From positions 1,527 to 65,526 of the forward strand of contig JAPLEF010000011.1 in NCBI GenBank assembly GCA_026391525.1: a stretch of 64,000 bases of DNA, in the 5' to 3' direction. Shown piece by piece: positions 5,588 to 49,968 of this stretch. Under the pieces are notes generated by a model, which did not search any database, had not been told where the DNA came from, and saw only the letters and a list, made by a program, of their open reading frames with translations. Numbering within the stretch: the stretch's first letter is position 1; the number at the start of each line of letters is the position of its first letter. Source of the DNA: Sphingobacteriales bacterium. Lineage in GTDB: Bacteria; Bacteroidota; Bacteroidia; Chitinophagales; Chitinophagaceae. A program made the position numbers and the translations under genes.

Positions 5588-7999
5588 ATGAAAAAGATTG
5601 TATCAGTTACGATGCTGTTGCTACTTACTGCATTCGTTAACTTCTGTTTTGCACAAACCGGTGCCGAATGGCCTAAAGAAATCCCACTTCAAACCAATGG
5701 CGGTAAGATCATCATTTATCAGCCACAGCCCGATGAACTTAATGGCAATACCCTAACTGGCAGAGCTGCTATAGCAGGGAAGGAAAATGCCAAAGACGAA
5801 CTCACCTTCGGGGCCATTTTTTTTGAGGCTAAACTTTCAACTGATAAGGCCACCAGAATGGCTACAATGGAATCTTTCAAAATTACCAATGCAAAGGTTA
5901 CAGGTCTCGATGACCAGGCTAAAATAACCAAGCTCATTTCAATCATCGAAACTGAAGTGCCTAAATGGAATTACGATTTATCGATTGATGATTTGGTAGC
6001 CACACTTAAAAAAGATCATCCTAATGCAGAAGTGTATAACAACACGCCTCCAAAAATCATCTACCGCGATAAGCCAACCACATTGGTTATTTTAGATGGT
6101 GAGCCTAAAGTAAAAAAAGACAAAGACCTCGATGCTGATCGTGTAATCAATTCGCCAAACCTTATTTTCAAGGAAGGCAGTCAGTGGAACATGTATGAAG
6201 GGGGTACCTGGTATAAATCCTCATCCATTCTCAGTGGATGGTCTGCCCAAAAATCCATGTCGAAAAAAGTAAGCAGCATCAATGATCAAATCAAAAAACA
6301 GGAAAAAGAAAATAACGACAATAAAGCCCCAACCGAAAAGCCTGAAGTAACCGATATCATCGTTAGCACCGTTCCAGCTGAAGTGATACAAACCAAAGGT
6401 GCACCTCAGTACAAAAAAATTGATAGTACCAACCTCGAATATGTAAGTAATACTACCAATGATATTTTCCGCGAGCCTACCGGTCAAATTTATATCCTCA
6501 TTGCAGGAAGATGGTTTAAGTCTGCCTCACTTAACGGCCCATGGGTTTTCAATGAATCTGATAAGATGCCTGCAGATTTTGCACGTATACCCGAAGGTTC
6601 CGAAAAAGATAGGGTGCTGGTGAGTATTTCGGGTACTAATGCCGCCGAGGAGGCCATCATTGATGCAGAAATTCCTCAAACCGCAAAGGTAGACCGTAAA
6701 ACGGCAACCGTAAAAGTGGAGTATGATGGTGAACCTAAATTTGAAGCCATCGAAGGTTGCAGCTTACAGCTAGGCATAAACGCTAATATCACGGTTCTTA
6801 AGGAAGCCAGTGGCAAATATTTCGCACTCGATAACGGCATTTGGTTTGTATCGGCTGCTGCAAAAGGCCCATGGAAAGTTGCAGATGTTCGCCCCGCTGA
6901 TGTAGAAAGTATTCCGGCTAAATCATCTGCCTACAATTCAAAATTCGTTCATATTTATGAAACAGCTTCCGATTATGTAGTGGTAGGTTACACCGGAGGT
7001 TATCTGGGCAATTATGTTCAGGGCGATCCGACGGTTGTATTCGGAACAGGATTTTATTATGCACCCTGGTATGGCAGTATATACTACCCAAGGCCTTGTA
7101 CCTGGGGCTTCAGCTTCTGCTACAATCCTTATACGGGTTGGAGTATGGGTTATGGCTTTAACGTAGGTTTCATGCATATCGGCATCGGTTTTGGTGGAGG
7201 TTATGGTTATGGTGGTTGGTTTGGTCCGCCAATGTATTACCCTCCTTATCGTCCGCCTTATTATGGAGGTGGTTATTACGGAGGAGGATATTATGGAAGG
7301 CCAGGTTATGGTGGAGGAGGATATCATGGTGGCAATAACAATATCAACATCAATAACAACATCAATATCAATAATAACCACAACAATATTTACCGTCCTA
7401 ATAATCGTCCTGGAAATACTGGAAATAATAACAATCGTCCAGGCGTTTCAACCCGTCCGGCTAATACAAAAGATAATCGGCCGGGGAATAATTACCGGCC
7501 TCAGGACCGCCAGGGAAATACCAATGCAGTGAACCGCCCTAATACCAAGCCTGCTTCAGCCGACAATCGCCTTCCATCCGTAAATAATCAAACCCGCCCT
7601 GCAGCCAAACCTGCAAACACCTCTAATGATGTTTTTGCTGATAAAGACGGAAATGTATTTCAACGCGATAAGCAAGGAAATGTAAACCAGCGTGATAATA
7701 AAAACAACAACTGGACAAAACCTGCCAATCCTGGTCCAACGAATATCGATCGTGAAGCAAACTCTCGCGACAGGAGCAATCAGCAACGGGATAATTTTAA
7801 TTCCATGCAGCGGCCAACGCCTTCAACAAGGCCAACACCGACTAACAGGCCATCCACGATGCCATCGCCGTCAACCCGACCTATGCCTTCAAACAGGCCT
7901 TCAACTATGCCGTCGCCATCAAGCAGGCCGGCACCATCATCAAGGCCCGCACCATCAAGCAGGCCGGCACCAAGTGGAATGGGAGGAAGAAGAGGGTAA
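5588..7999 (+). CDS. Large exported hypothetical protein with a Gly/Tyr-, Asn- and Pro/Ser/Arg-rich low-complexity C-terminal third
   Basis: 803-aa ORF; signal peptide; repeated W(Y/F)KS..L.GPW modules; disordered tail. Confidence 0.8.
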   Translation: MKKIVSVTMLLLLTAFVNFCFAQTGAEWPKEIPLQTNGGKIIIYQPQPDELNGNTLTGRAAIAGKENAKDELTFGAIFFEAKLSTDKATRMATMESFKITNAKVTGLDDQAKITKLISIIETEVPKWNYDLSIDDLVATLKKDHPNAEVYNNTPPKIIYRDKPTTLVILDGEPKVKKDKDLDADRVINSPNLIFKEGSQWNMYEGGTWYKSSSILSGWSAQKSMSKKVSSINDQIKKQEKENNDNKAPTEKPEVTDIIVSTVPAEVIQTKGAPQYKKIDSTNLEYVSNTTNDIFREPTGQIYILIAGRWFKSASLNGPWVFNESDKMPADFARIPEGSEKDRVLVSISGTNAAEEAIIDAEIPQTAKVDRKTATVKVEYDGEPKFEAIEGCSLQLGINANITVLKEASGKYFALDNGIWFVSAAAKGPWKVADVRPADVESIPAKSSAYNSKFVHIYETASDYVVVGYTGGYLGNYVQGDPTVVFGTGFYYAPWYGSIYYPRPCTWGFSFCYNPYTGWSMGYGFNVGFMHIGIGFGGGYGYGGWFGPPMYYPPYRPPYYGGGYYGGGYYGRPGYGGGGYHGGNNNININNNININNNHNNIYRPNNRPGNTGNNNNRPGVSTRPANTKDNRPGNNYRPQDRQGNTNAVNRPNTKPASADNRLPSVNNQTRPAAKPANTSNDVFADKDGNVFQRDKQGNVNQRDNKNNNWTKPANPGPTNIDREANSRDRSNQQRDNFNSMQRPTPSTRPTPTNRPSTMPSPSTRPMPSNRPSTMPSPSSRPAPSSRPAPSSRPAPSGMGGRRG
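7815..7975 (+). repeat. Coding tandem repeats encoding RPTPS/RPSTMPSPS/SSRPAP units
   Basis: Degenerate units such as ccatcaagcaggccggca occur repeatedly at the 3' end of the 803-aa gene. Confidence 0.75.
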
Positions 8000-8020
8000 A
8001 TAGTTTCAATTGTAATTTCT

Positions 8021-8054
8021 AAAGCTGCAACGATAAATTTGTTGCAGCTTTTTT
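8021..8054 (+). terminator. Intrinsic terminator after the 803-aa gene
   Basis: aaagctgcaac-gataaattt-gttgcagcttt followed by a T-run. Confidence 0.8.
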
Positions 8055-8291
8055 AGTGCCAGCTCTGAAGATAGCCGTTTAAAGATCAATGCATTTGGAT
8101 CACCTGTTATGCTGCAGGCGACTGGATTTAACGATCAAGGAATCGAATATCAATTTTGCCATGGATATGAGATGGGAAATAAAGGAAGGACCCGGATTTA
8201 TTTCCATTGGAGGAAATTTCCAGAAGAATTAATTCTACAAAAATTACCTCATAACAAGAGTTTATTTCCTTATTTTAGCAAAAAAATTATC

Positions 8292-8771
8292 ATGAAAAAA
8301 CAATTTATTCCATTCTTATTTTTAGTTCTTATTGGCCTGGCAGGTCAGGCACAAGACAAATCTGAAATTGCCATGATTCGCGAGATGTGGAAAGTAGAAA
8401 AAAAGGATCTTGTACGTGAATACATGGCTCTGGATGAGAAACAATCCGCAGGATTCTGGCCACTTTATGATTCTTATTCACAGGAAAGGGCTTCCTTAGC
8501 CACCAATCGTATGGAATCATTAGAGAATTATGCAAAAAACTATACCACACTCACAGATGAGCAATCTGATGATCTGGTGAAGGCTATCTTGAAAAATGAT
8601 AAAGAAAATGTTGATTTGCAGGAGAAGTATTACAAAAAAATGAAGAAGGTGATCGGTTCTACAAAAGCCGCTCAGTTCTTACAAATGGAATCTTATTTCC
8701 AAACACAAATAAGAGCAGAAGTACAGGAAGCGATTCCTTTCATTGGACAGATAGAACGTAAAAAGGGATAA
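8292..8771 (+). CDS. Exported all-helical hypothetical protein (start reassigned from 8109 to 8292)
   Basis: MKKQFIPFLFLVLIGLAGQAQ is a clear signal peptide; FWPLYDSY motif and helical heptads. Confidence 0.7.
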   Translation: MKKQFIPFLFLVLIGLAGQAQDKSEIAMIREMWKVEKKDLVREYMALDEKQSAGFWPLYDSYSQERASLATNRMESLENYAKNYTTLTDEQSDDLVKAILKNDKENVDLQEKYYKKMKKVIGSTKAAQFLQMESYFQTQIRAEVQEAIPFIGQIERKKG

Positions 8772-8792
8772 GATTTTTTTTCGATTGATTCT

Positions 8793-8832
8793 AAAACAGG
8801 CAAATCGTTCATCAGAATGGTTTGCCTGTTTT
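8793..8832. terminator. Bidirectional terminator between convergent genes
   Basis: aaaacaggcaaa ... tttgcctgtttt inverted repeat. Confidence 0.75.
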
Positions 8833-8843
8833 ATTTGAAATAG

Positions 8844-9219
8844 TCAAAACTTAAAATACACAAATAATACCAATGTGTTTTATATAATATGCCAATATTT
8901 TATAAATCTTAAATGCCGATGGTATCAAACAAATAGTACAATGAGGCGATAGCCGATATTGGACTATATTGTTTGTCCAATCGGTATATCTTCCAAAATT
9001 CTTGCAGTCGTTTTCAATGCGGTGATATAGAGGCTTGATATGTGGCATCTGTAAGAAACGTTCAACCTTTTTACGGAGTTGCCCGCTGCCTTTCCCCGGG
9101 ATGATTTCTACTTCTTTTATTTTTTTATCGATGGCATCTTCAAAAGCCTGTTGCAAGGCCTTGTCTATCGCTTTGCTGTTGTTGTAAATATCATGCAGGT
9201 CAACTTTTATTCTTGCCAT
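8844..9219 (-). pseudogene. Smr-domain (Smr/MutS2 C-terminal-like) small protein interrupted near its 3' end by a 121-bp element; currently reads as a 122-aa chimera (8851-9219)
   Basis: DLHDIY and EIIPGKGSGQLRKKV Smr motifs. Removing 8867-8987 restores an in-frame 84-aa ORF ending KNFGR-LFVYFKF* (TGA at 8844-8846). Confidence 0.8.
8867..8987. mobile_element. 121-bp non-autonomous MITE-like hairpin element, copy 1
   Basis: 119/121 identical to copy 2 once copy 2's extra pieces are removed; imperfect terminal inverted repeats ATACCAAT/ATCGGTAT; long internal stem. Confidence 0.8.
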
Positions 9220-9260
9220 ACTATTAATTTCTGATCAACAAAAATGGCTTGTATTTTTTC

Positions 9261-10103
9261 CTATGCCAGCGGATTGATGAGACGGATACCATCATCACCA
9301 AAGCTGATCTTCTTTTGTTTGTACAAATTTCCGGTGGTCATCTTAAAAGTCTTTTTGCTCATGGAAAAAAATTGATAAATCTGCTCGGGATCCGATTTGT
9401 CGTGGTAGGGCAGAAAGCCGTCATTTTCTTTTAACAGCCGAAGGATTTTTTCTGTTTCATCTTCAACACGCTGATAGCCGGGTTTGCCGATTGAAACATC
9501 AATCTTTTCGCCGTCGGGATATATTTTTTTGATAAAACCGCGGAATTGATCGCCTGCCGTTATTGCCCGGTAAATTTCATTGTGATGAAGCACCCCGGTA
9601 TGTTTATGGTTGATGATTACCACATAGCCGATATCTGTTCGGCGGTAAACCAAGAGATTTACTTCTTCCATTTCTTTCACCGATAAAGATTGATTGGTAA
9701 GGAAGGGTTCAATTTTTTCTGTTGCCGCAAGTCTGCCGGTTTGCTCATCCAATACCACTTTTACAATATATTCTCCTTTTGGCAACATCGGTTGTAGCTG
9801 GGCCGATTTCGGTACGAACAAGTCTTTCATCAAACCCCAATCTAAAAATGCGCCTTGTGGTGTTGTTGAAACCACCGCCATTTTTGCAATTTCTCCCAAT
9901 ATAGCTTTTGGTTTTTGGGTTGTTGCAATCAATCGTTCATCGCCATCGTGATAAATAAACACACTAATCGTATCGCCTGGTTTGAGATCCTTCGGAACAA
10001 ATCTGGTGGGCAGCAATACACCTTCTTTGCCATCATCCAGATATAAACCAAAATCAACTGCCCGTAATACCTTTAGGTTATTATATTCACCAACTTTGAT
10101 CAT
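9261..10103 (-). CDS. cvfB: CvfB/YitL family S1-domain RNA-binding protein
   Basis: MIKVGEYNNLKV..DFGLYLD, GAFLDWGLMKDLFVP, and C-terminal winged helix FFSMSKKTFKMTTGNLYK. Confidence 0.88.
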   Translation of the reverse strand: MIKVGEYNNLKVLRAVDFGLYLDDGKEGVLLPTRFVPKDLKPGDTISVFIYHDGDERLIATTQKPKAILGEIAKMAVVSTTPQGAFLDWGLMKDLFVPKSAQLQPMLPKGEYIVKVVLDEQTGRLAATEKIEPFLTNQSLSVKEMEEVNLLVYRRTDIGYVVIINHKHTGVLHHNEIYRAITAGDQFRGFIKKIYPDGEKIDVSIGKPGYQRVEDETEKILRLLKENDGFLPYHDKSDPEQIYQFFSMSKKTFKMTTGNLYKQKKISFGDDGIRLINPLA

Positions 10104-49620: not shown

Positions 49621-49674
49621 ATTGATTGAATGGAATAGCCTTTGCTGATGAATATTCAGGGACACTAAAAAGTT

Positions 49675-49893
49675 ATACCAATGTGATTTATATAATATGC
49701 CAATATTTTATAAATCTTATCCCGAATGCTTTCGGGAGTAAATGCCGATGGTATCAAACAAATAGTACAATGAGGCGACAGCCGATATTGGACTATATTG
49801 TTTGTCCAATCGGTATAAATGCCGATGGTATCAAACAAATAGTACAATGAGGCGACAGCCGATATTGGACTATATTGTTTGTCCAATCGGTAT
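49675..49893. mobile_element. Copy 2 of the MITE-like element, expanded to 219 bp by a nested 19-bp hairpin and a 77-bp tandem duplication
   Basis: Same termini and body as 8867-8987; insert at 49720-49738 flanked by TA; duplicated unit 49740-49816 / 49817-49893. Confidence 0.8.
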
Positions 49894-49968
49894 TATTATC
49901 AACAAAGTGATTGTACCAGTGTTTTCATCAAACTTCTTTCCTTCGATTTTCCTAATTTGCAGTTCTAC

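What the first reader, a model, noticed from the sequence alone, without database searches (positions are those of the whole stretch)
8844..9219. A 121-bp hairpin element inserted in an Smr gene replaces its last strand with a new 45-aa tail
Seen: deleting 8867-8987 joins GGA AGA to TTA TTT GTG TAT TTT AAG TTT TGA, giving an 84-aa Smr protein ending KNFGRLFVYFKF*. With the element, the frame stays open and reads ...FGR-YTDWTNNIVQYRLSPHCTICLIPSAFKIYKILAYYIKHIGIICVF*. The element has imperfect terminal inverted repeats (ATACCAAT / ATCGGTAT). Its 3' part folds into a ~27-bp stem (ccgatggtatcaaacaaatagtacaat with attggactatattgtttgtccaatcgg). Established: MITE-like palindromes such as ERIC, Correia, RUP and Rickettsia RPE can enter coding sequences. 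Inference: this is an active, possibly undescribed Bacteroidota element that is open in one frame and can remodel protein C-termini.
Basis: partly seen in the sequence, partly recalled or inferred. Interest (0 to 1): 0.75.

Follow-up and report, generated by a model that had tools for sequence, protein, structure and literature searches.

The report
Small mobile repeat inserted in smr gene
A 119-base non-coding mobile repeat (a MITE found in dozens of copies in freshwater Ferruginibacter-like bacteria) has landed in the last codons of a small Smr nuclease gene and replaced its end with repeat-encoded amino acids; this is real but an ordinary kind of event.

Summary
The minus-strand smr ORF (8851-9219, 122 aa) is interrupted after codon 77 by a repeat. 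Hundreds of orthologues are 84 aa and end KNFGRLFVYFKF*, exactly the predicted empty-site product.

The element is a genuine MITE. It spans 8868-8986 (119 nt), with imperfect terminal inverted repeats of about 31 nt and a 75-nt hairpin module. It has a 3-bp target-site duplication, TAA or TTA, in 54 of 69 independent copies. At least 76 loci carry it in Ferruginibacter, Segetibacter and other Chitinophagaceae MAGs. A second, 217-nt copy lies at 49676-49892.

Two corrections. The insert is 119 nt plus a TAA duplication (122 nt). The window lacks one base of the right-hand duplicate, and only that 1-nt deletion opens the frame to give the 45-aa tail. Six other metagenome contigs keep the intact duplicate and encode a 26-aa tail (103 aa). 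A third allele carries the 140-nt form (110 aa). Independent contigs from three runs reproduce the deletion, so it is real.

"Active" is not shown. Both window insertions are present in all related strains, and no same-species empty site or partner transposase was found.

Verdict: a new, apparently undescribed MITE family of a well-known kind, probably mobilised by an IS5/PIF-Harbinger-type transposase. Moderate-to-low interest.

The parts
8851..9219 (-). smr::MITE open reading frame, 122 aa. The stop TAA at 8851-8853 lies out of frame within the orphaned smr 3' end.
   Evidence: P0001
8989..9219 (-). Codons 1-77 of smr (Smr domain, DLH and GKG motifs), ending ...KNFGR.
   Evidence: Pfam PF01713 at E = 1.6e-10. 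87-100% identical to hundreds of orthologues.
8868..8986 (.). MITE copy 1, 119 nt (TACCAATGTG...CCAATCGGTA). It is the only copy seen in which the left module is joined directly to the hairpin module.
8865..8867 (.). Left target-site duplicate, TAA. On the gene strand this is TTA, originally Leu78 of smr.
8987..8988 (.). Right target-site duplicate reduced to TA. One A is missing compared with six other contigs that read GGTA-TAA-TCTTCC. This 1-nt deletion creates the 45-aa tail.
   Evidence: Reproduced with 0 mismatches and 0 gaps by 7036-nt Logan contigs in runs X1-X3.
8868..8898 (.). Left terminal inverted repeat, about 31 nt.
   Evidence: 19/31 identical to the reverse complement of the right end in this copy, 20/31 in the consensus.
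8956..8986 (.). Right terminal inverted repeat, about 31 nt. It is also the 3' arm of the long hairpin.
8912..8986 (.). Hairpin module, 75 nt. An inner TIR-like arm (8914-8947) pairs with the right TIR.
   Evidence: DNA fold z = -5.15. Across 26 variants 96.8% of cells stay paired and 4 pairs show compensatory changes, reached by 0 of 500 shuffles.
8844..8864 (-). Orphaned 3' end of smr: TTT GTG TAT TTT AAG TTT TGA = FVYFKF*.
   Evidence: Matches the orthologue C-termini.
8792..8833 (.). 19-bp-arm inverted repeat between the convergent genes orf220 and smr. Probably the native bidirectional terminator; not part of the MITE.
   Evidence: I2, 89% complementary. Not called by the simple terminator scan.
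49676..49892 (.). MITE copy 2, 217 nt. Layout: left module 49676-49719, 19-nt GC mini-hairpin 49720-49738, and two tandem hairpin modules at 49741-49815 and 49818-49892. TTA duplicates lie at 49673-49675 and 49893-49895. It is intergenic, between a Zn-ribbon/CT398-like gene and recN.

Best explanation
The feature is one copy of a non-autonomous DNA transposon (a MITE) that is abundant in freshwater Ferruginibacter-like Chitinophagaceae.

Structure. The element is 119-146 nt. It has imperfect terminal inverted repeats of about 31 bp (TACCAATGTGATTT... / ...CCAATCGGTA). A third, inner TIR-like copy pairs with the right end to form a roughly 30-bp hairpin. A variable linker separates the left and hairpin modules: absent, CAGTGGTA, or a 19-nt GC mini-hairpin.

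Insertion mechanism. Insertion duplicates a 3-bp T-W-A target. This points to cut-and-paste by a DDE transposase supplied in trans, of the IS5 / PIF-Harbinger type. The transposase type is inferred; no partner was found.

The smr event. One insertion hit the TTA codon for Leu78 of an 84-aa stand-alone Smr-domain gene, seven codons before its stop. The final beta-strand codons (FVYFKF*) were pushed 122 nt downstream, and translation now continues into the element.

Allele series. In the ancestral insertion allele the frame reads LYRLDKQYSPISAIASLYYLFDTIGI and stops at a TAA inside the element (103 aa). A related allele holds the 140-nt form (110 aa). In the window's population one base of the right-hand TAA duplicate was later lost. 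That shifts the frame into the only fully open frame of the element and gives the 45-aa tail (122 aa).

Shown versus inferred. Shown: the insertion, the TSD, the copy number, the allele series and the reality of the 1-nt deletion. Inferred: the transposase type, and whether the remodelled Smr still works.
For: - Orthologues are 84 aa and end KNFGRLFVYFKF*. The restored protein covers the full Smr profile.
- Empty-site DNA reads GGAAG[A/G]-TTA-TT[T/C]GTG in L007 and L084-86, against the filled site GGAAGA-TTA-[119 nt]-TTA-TTTGTG in L001-L006.
Most hits are in one Ferruginibacter MAG; others are in further Ferruginibacter, Segetibacter and Chitinophagaceae MAGs.
- 74 full copies were extracted. 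Of 69 independent copies, 55 have identical 3-bp flanks, 54 of them TAA or TTA. The target logo is T-W-A in AT-rich surroundings.
- Copies are 96-97.5% alike.
- More than 100 Logan contigs per metagenome run break in the element.
- The window's 1-nt-shorter junction is reproduced exactly by contigs of three runs, while a fourth run carries the other allele.
- Hairpin pairing is conserved with compensatory changes.
- A TWA duplication is the hallmark of PIF/Harbinger elements, which are related to bacterial IS5 (PMC4482050).
Against: - No autonomous element with matching ends was found in the window, in 83 fetched loci or in one scan of JGI metagenome contigs. The transposase family is therefore inferred from the TSD alone.
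- No empty site was found within the same species, so recent mobility at this locus is not demonstrated.
- There is no evidence that either tail is translated or functional. Metatranscriptome contigs covered other copies of the element but not smr.
- AlphaFold2 gives pLDDT below 50 for both tails.
Confidence: 0.9

Rival explanations
1. The long tail is the native C-terminus of this Smr lineage and nothing was inserted.
For: None, apart from the ORF being uninterrupted.
Against: Hundreds of orthologues at 87-99% identity are 84 aa and end LFVYFKF*. The orphaned FVYFKF* codons still sit right after the element. The tail is encoded by a repeat present at 76 or more other loci.
Confidence: 0.01
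2. This is an assembly artefact: either contigs were mis-joined at a repeat, or the missing base at 8987-8989 (which alone produces the 45-aa tail) is a sequencing error.
For: Short-read contigs break inside the element because it is highly repeated. P0001 is known from a single contig, whereas about 50 contigs encode the 103-aa alleles.
Against: Six contigs from six different JGI samples show the same gene order across the element. Logan contigs of runs X1-X3 (7036 nt, depth 11-15) cover 8959-9300, including the junction, with 0 mismatches and 0 gaps. A 28-kb contig covers the other junction. These runs may include the data the window was assembled from, so the independence is of assembler rather than necessarily of sample.
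Confidence: 0.04
3. The element is a REP/REPIN-type palindrome mobilised by a RAYT (Y1) transposase, or an IS200/IS605-derived palindromic element, rather than a MITE derived from a DDE transposon.
For: It has a long near-perfect hairpin, high copy number, tandem hairpin units, and no partner DDE transposase has been found.
Against: Those elements insert without target-site duplication. Here 55 of 69 copies have matching 3-bp flanks whose middle base co-varies between the two sides. Distinct outer TIRs also bound the element.
Confidence: 0.03
4. The insertion has been exapted. The smr::MITE fusion is kept by selection because the new tail, or the 3' hairpin in the mRNA, provides a function. 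This is compatible with the MITE origin and adds to it.
For: The insertion allele is fixed across lineages 92-98% identical. Among insertion-bearing alleles, the 77 Smr codons differ by 9 synonymous and 0 non-synonymous changes (window vs L002-6), or 7 and 1 (vs L087). The N-terminal domain is intact in all alleles.
Against: The region is a recombination mosaic. The element and downstream DNA are 100% identical between the window and L002-L006, while the smr 5' part is identical to L001 instead. The synonymous differences may therefore predate the insertion. Three different tails (26, 33 and 45 aa) coexist, which looks like drift rather than constraint. Both tails are predicted with low confidence. 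No transcript or peptide evidence was found.
Confidence: 0.1

Closest known systems
MITEs derived from the IS5 / PIF-Harbinger (PHIS) superfamily, such as Tourist-like MITEs, and the bacterial IS5-family subgroups with 2-4-bp TNA/TWA duplications (IS1031, ISL2, IS427; the subgroup TSD sizes are from my own knowledge of ISfinder)
   Same: 3-bp T-W-A target-site duplication, AT-rich targets, short TIR-bounded non-coding elements, high copy number (the TWA hallmark is from PMC4482050). IS5-family ISL2 and IS1031 elements are common in Bacteroidota (PMC3196728).
   Different: No partner transposase was identified. The TACC...GGTA termini were not compared with ISfinder, which is not available here. 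The third, inner TIR copy and the tandem hairpin modules are not typical.
Correia (Neisseria), ERIC (enterobacteria) and RUP/BOX (pneumococcus) elements
   Same: Repeats of about 100-150 bp that are TIR-bounded and hairpin-forming. They are mostly intergenic and co-transcribed, and occasionally lie inside or at the ends of ORFs, producing fusions or truncations (review PMC10969869).
   Different: From my own knowledge, those families duplicate TA or show no clear TSD, and they belong to Proteobacteria or Firmicutes. No sequence similarity was detected: there were no Rfam hits and no plasmid hits.
Rickettsia palindromic elements (RPE)
   Same: A palindromic repeat that contributes amino acids to host proteins (PMC10969869).
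   Different: RPEs are typically inserted in frame and the host ORF continues beyond them. Here the insert is 122 nt, not a multiple of 3, the downstream codons are lost, and only about 9% of copies touch a coding sequence, nearly all at the extreme 3' end.
Porphyromonas gingivalis MITEs, e.g. the minisatellite-containing MITE of PMC4596501
   Same: Same phylum, and a MITE with internal tandemly repeated units (abstract seen).
   Different: Different order and habitat. The sequence, size and TSD were not compared in detail.
REPIN / RAYT systems
   Same: Hairpin-forming inverted doublets dispersed in many copies.
   Different: A target-site duplication is present here, and outer TIRs are distinct from the hairpin.

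Membership tests
Prokaryotic MITE (non-autonomous DDE-transposon derivative) | Small size with no transposase coding capacity | tested here: met
   119-146 nt (217-270 nt for composite or tandem copies). The longest open frame is 46 codons or fewer.
Prokaryotic MITE (non-autonomous DDE-transposon derivative) | Terminal inverted repeats | tested here: met
   20/31 identical in the consensus and 19/31 in the smr copy. The first 4 and positions 6-7 match.
Prokaryotic MITE (non-autonomous DDE-transposon derivative) | Target-site duplication of fixed length | tested here: met
   3-bp flanks are identical in 55 of 69 independent copies: 29 TAA, 25 TTA, 1 TCA.
Prokaryotic MITE (non-autonomous DDE-transposon derivative) | Dispersed, multi-copy | tested here: met
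Two copies in the window. More than 100 contigs per metagenome run end in it.
Prokaryotic MITE (non-autonomous DDE-transposon derivative) | Empty sites (orthologous loci without the element) | tested here: met
   smr orthologues from other species carry GGAAG(A/G)TTATT(T/C)GTG uninterrupted. No same-species empty site was found.
Prokaryotic MITE (non-autonomous DDE-transposon derivative) | Autonomous partner IS sharing the TIRs | tested here: inconclusive
   No extra TIR pairs and no multi-copy ORF in the window or the 83 loci. One metagenome scan for a right end not followed by MITE sequence gave 0 hits. Complete genomes were not available.
IS5 / PIF-Harbinger-type origin | 3-bp TNA/TWA duplication at AT-rich targets | tested here: met
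   PMC4482050
IS5 / PIF-Harbinger-type origin | DDE transposase of that family bounded by the same ends | not testable with these tools
   No partner found, and there is no ISfinder access.
REPIN / RAYT or IS200/IS605-derived palindromic elements | Insertion without target-site duplication, with an associated Y1 transposase | tested here: not met
   Co-varying 3-bp duplications flank the copies.
Correia / ERIC / RUP-type (TA-duplicating) MITEs | TA dinucleotide duplication | tested here: not met
   The middle base (A or T) of the 3-bp flank co-varies between the left and right sides, so the duplication is 3 bp, not TA.
RPE-like in-frame coding insertions | Insert length is a multiple of 3 and the host ORF resumes after the element | tested here: not met
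   The insert is 119 + 3 = 122 nt (121 in the window). The host's last 6 codons are out of frame and unused.
Smr domain (PF01713), the host gene | Significant match to the Smr profile over its full length | tested here: met
   Restored protein: E = 8.6e-13, profile positions 1-77 of 77. Interrupted protein: positions 1-68 of 77 only. There is weak similarity to the Smr domains of MutS2 structures 8qpp and 4och.
Known structured RNA family (Rfam) | Match at or above the gathering score | tested here: not met
   Only chance-level hits in 8000-10000.

The most novel reading that the evidence does not exclude
The family is mobilised by a bacterial transposase that makes PIF/Harbinger-like TWA duplications and has not yet been described. 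In addition, the smr::MITE fusion is not a crippled gene but an exapted one. It has been kept through speciation-level divergence, with the element supplying a replacement C-terminal segment or an mRNA 3' hairpin, and with frame-switching single-base indels at the junction generating alternative tails.
Probability: 0.08. Interest if true: 0.55.

Novelty: new member of a known kind. Interest (0 to 1): 0.33.

Why it matters
It adds a well-defined MITE family to a phylum and habitat (freshwater Chitinophagaceae) where such elements are barely catalogued. Its ends, modules and TWA target are now mapped.

It explains why short-read assemblies of these abundant lake bacteria fragment: more than 100 contigs per run end in the element.

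It also gives a clean natural allele series of one small nuclease gene, with 84-, 103-, 110- and 122-aa products. That series could be used to test how much of the Smr fold's last strand is needed.

For annotation, it flags that the odd C-termini of P0001, P0002 and P0004-type proteins are repeat-derived. Conceptually it does not change what is known about MITEs.

Tried and rejected
- Rfam scan of 8000-10000: only chance-level hits.
- Promoter/terminator scan: the hairpin is not an intrinsic terminator.
- blastn of the 140-nt consensus against PLSDB plasmids: no match.
- 21-nt probe against IMG/VR viral contigs: no match.
- Same-species empty site: an exact 33-mer across the restored junction found 0 hits in JGI metagenome contigs. 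No deletion joints appeared in Logan contigs at either window locus.
- Partner IS: none of three searches found one. They were a search for extra TIR-like ends, all-against-all ORF comparison for multi-copy ORFs in 83 loci plus the window, and a metagenome scan for the right end followed by non-MITE bases (0 hits).
- Expression: metatranscriptome contigs contained other copies of the element, including the 127-nt form and hairpin tandems, but not smr.
- AlphaFold2 of the 122-aa and 103-aa alleles: the core scored only pLDDT 63-82 and the tails below 50, so it was not informative on whether a tail segment replaces the lost strand. MAFFT aligned LFVYFKF to the tail segment LAYYIKH; I treat that as coincidence.
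- PDB sequence search: no hit with the single sequence, and only weak MutS2 Smr hits with a profile.
- dN/dS as a test of post-insertion constraint: rejected as inconclusive because the locus is a recombination mosaic.
- Literature: no paper combines MITE with Chitinophagaceae. General MITE literature shows that intragenic fusions are already known.

Full report
**1. Observation**

Its first 74 residues match the Pfam Smr domain, but only to profile position 68 of 77 (41.4 bits). Removing 8867-8987 gives an 84-aa protein that matches the whole profile (positions 1-77 of 77, 48.7 bits).

The stretch 8912-8986 folds into a long imperfect hairpin. Folded as DNA it gives -23.9 kcal/mol with z = -5.15, and none of 200 shuffles folds as well. 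The description is therefore accurate.

**2. The element is a repeat**

A low-stringency blastn of the region against the window found a second copy at 49676-49892. That copy consists of:
- the same 44-nt left module;
- a 19-nt GC mini-hairpin (TCCCGAATGCTTTCGGGAG);
- two tandem copies of the 75-nt hairpin module.

It lies between the terminator of a Zn-ribbon/CT398-like gene and recN.

A 21-nt probe from the right end (ATATTGTTTGTCCAATCGGTA) was scanned against one genome per GTDB species. Most were in one Lake Mendota Ferruginibacter MAG (JBIIPY01). The rest were in other MAGs labelled Ferruginibacter, Segetibacter or Chitinophagaceae.

**3. Anatomy and target**

I extracted 74 full copies with flanks. 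All begin TACCAATGTG and end CCAATCGGTA. The two ends are imperfect inverted repeats over about 31 nt, with 20/31 identical.

Length classes seen:
- 140 nt, with the GC mini-hairpin: 32 copies;
- 125-127 nt, with a CAGTGGTA-type linker: 23 copies;
- 146 nt, with an extra 20-nt insert;
- 119 nt, with no linker: seen only in smr.

Target-site duplication: of 69 independent copies, 55 have identical trinucleotides on both sides (29 TAA, 25 TTA, 1 TCA). The middle base co-varies between the two sides, so the duplication is 3 bp (T-W-A) and not TA. The surrounding target is merely AT-rich.

Copies of one length class are 96-97.5% identical to each other.

The hairpin is the right TIR paired with an inner, third TIR-like copy. 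Across 26 sequence variants 96.8% of base-pair cells are kept, and four pairs show compensatory double changes (for example TAGTACAAT/ATTGGACTA becoming TAGCCCAAT/ATTGGGCTA). No shuffle out of 500 reaches this, and it exceeds all slid controls. The 3' arm was partly fixed by my probe, so variation there is censored.

Rare hairpin-only copies have their own TAA flanks, for example L069. Adjacent copies can share one TTA, as in L053. Both fit a minimal TIR-TIR unit that can move or multiply on its own.

**4. The smr insertion**

The protein search returned 969 hits.

At the DNA level:
- empty sites read GGAAG(A/G)-TTA-TT(T/C)GTGTATTTTAA... (L007, L084-86);
- six JGI contigs from six samples (L001-L006) read GGAAGA-TTA-[119-nt element]-TTA-TTTGTGTATTTTAAGTTTTGA.

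The element therefore inserted at the TTA codon of Leu78 and duplicated it. The six orphaned codons plus stop still follow the element at window 8844-8864.

Those six contigs encode a 103-aa protein (P0002; P0003, P0005 and P0009 are near-identical). Its tail LYRLDKQYSPISAIASLYYLFDTIGI stops at a TAA inside the element.

The window differs from all six by one missing base in the right-hand duplicate: GGTA-TA-TCTTCC instead of GGTA-TAA-TCTTCC. That single deletion shifts translation into the only stop-free frame of the element and yields the 45-aa tail.

The deletion is real. Logan contigs of three freshwater runs (7036 nt, depth 11-15) cover 8959-9300 with no mismatch and no gap. A fourth run carries the other allele, with 1 gap and 10 mismatches.

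A third allele (L087, P0004, 110 aa) carries the 140-nt form at the same site.

**5. Age and activity**

Insertion-bearing contigs are 93-98% identical to the window over 4-6 kb. All empty alleles I could retrieve belong to more distant species, with smr 82-85% and the neighbouring cvfB about 69% identical.

No evidence of a recent event was found:
- an exact same-species empty-site 33-mer had no hit in JGI metagenome contigs;
- no deletion joints appeared in Logan contigs at either window locus, and related strains also run into the element at locus 2.

Both window insertions are thus old enough to be fixed. High similarity among copies suggests fairly recent family expansion, but current activity is not shown.

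The locus is a recombination mosaic:
- the element and the downstream orf220 are 100% identical to L002-L006;
- smr codons 1-77 are identical to L001 and differ from L002-L006 by 9 synonymous and 0 non-synonymous codon changes.

Because of the mosaic, this cannot be read as proof of purifying selection after the insertion.

**6. Consequence for the protein**

The DLH and GKG motifs are intact. The last beta-strand, LFVYF, is gone. AlphaFold2 with a shallow alignment gave pLDDT 63-82 for residues 1-60 and below 50 for both tails. There is therefore no support for a structured replacement, though the models are too weak to exclude one.

Three different tails coexist in nature (26, 33 and 45 aa), which looks like drift.

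An open frame is not special either: 20% of composition-matched shuffles have at least one open frame.

**7. Generality**

Of 67 independent copies, 61 are intergenic. The remaining six are:
- three exactly at a TAA stop codon, which the duplication preserves: ATP synthase delta (OSCP), DUF6122 and a 560-aa ORF;
- two in the last 7-11 codons of real genes, replacing their ends: ORF6N (RRNGDED becomes IPIGQTI) and DUF2237 (the last 11 aa become IPM);
- one interrupting a 192-aa ORF of unknown status.

Remodelling of 3' ends is therefore a recurrent but minor outcome. It is what selection would leave from insertions into TWA sites.

**8. Mechanism and relatives**

Fixed 3-bp TWA duplications with TIRs indicate a DDE cut-and-paste transposase acting in trans. 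TWA is the hallmark of PIF/Harbinger elements, which are related to bacterial IS5 (PMC4482050). IS5-family ISL2 and IS1031 elements are common in Bacteroidota (PMC3196728).

No partner was found in the data I could reach.

REPIN/RAYT and IS200/IS605-type elements are excluded by the duplication. Correia, ERIC and RUP-type elements are excluded by its length. RPE-type in-frame insertion is excluded by the 122-nt insert.

Intragenic MITE fusions are already documented for ERIC, RUP, QMITE1, Anabaena MITEs and RPEs (PMC10969869). I found no description of this family and no copies in plasmids or viral contigs.

**9. Verdict**

This is a real and cleanly resolved MITE insertion in smr. It belongs to a new family of a known kind. 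The striking 45-aa tail is a secondary 1-nt frameshift in one population. The finding is useful for annotation and as a natural allele series, but it is not conceptually new. Interest 0.33.

Noticed in passing
window 49676-49892: Second MITE copy with the hairpin module duplicated in tandem (77-nt period) and a 19-nt GC mini-hairpin. It lies between a Zn-ribbon/CT398-like gene and recN. Related strains in other runs also carry an element at this site.
   Followed up: yes
L087:780-1033 (ENA ERZ27271712 k141_59137): The smr copy here is the 140-nt form. The DNA after it is not the orphaned smr 3' end or orf220, and the flanking trinucleotides differ (TTA vs TAA). This suggests a rearrangement by recombination between two MITE copies.
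   Followed up: partly
window 8300-10103 compared with L001-L006: Recombination mosaic. orf220 and the element are 100% identical to L002-L006, smr codons 1-77 are identical to L001 instead, and cvfB differs from all of them by 2-8%. The 1-nt deletion sits at the boundary between the two ancestry tracts.
   Followed up: partly
L013:755-900 vs L052:1408-1533: The same orthologous insertion occurs in two MAG species (flanks about 96% identical) but differs by a 20-nt internal segment (ACCTGTGCCGGTACTACGGT). Like the 119- and 140-nt forms in smr, this shows internal modules are gained or lost in place after insertion.
   Followed up: yes
L053:4157-4426: Two complete MITEs sit head-to-tail and share a single TTA, as expected if a new copy inserts into the TWA duplicate of an older one.
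   Followed up: partly
L069:6956-7030; L079:7813-7885: Hairpin-module-only copies without a left module. The L069 copy has TAA on both sides, which suggests the 75-nt TIR-TIR unit can transpose on its own.
   Followed up: partly
L068:1600-1830: A solitary, truncated left module abuts what looks like a tRNA gene (GGGACGTAGCGCAGCCCGGTAGCGCAC...).
   Followed up: no
runs X23, X24, X42 laid on window 8700-9300: Lake metatranscriptome contigs contain MITE sequence, including the 127-nt form and hairpin-hairpin tandems. Some copies are therefore transcribed, or DNA carried over. smr itself was not covered.
   Followed up: partly
window 5588-7999 (+): An 803-aa secreted-looking protein whose C-terminal third is extreme low complexity, rich in G, Y, N and P with PSxRP-type repeats. 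Its length varies among related contigs.
   Followed up: no
window 8109-8771 (+): orf220, convergent with smr, has no Pfam match. Homologues lie in the same 8-kb MITE-containing loci L032 and L053 of another Ferruginibacter MAG.
   Followed up: no
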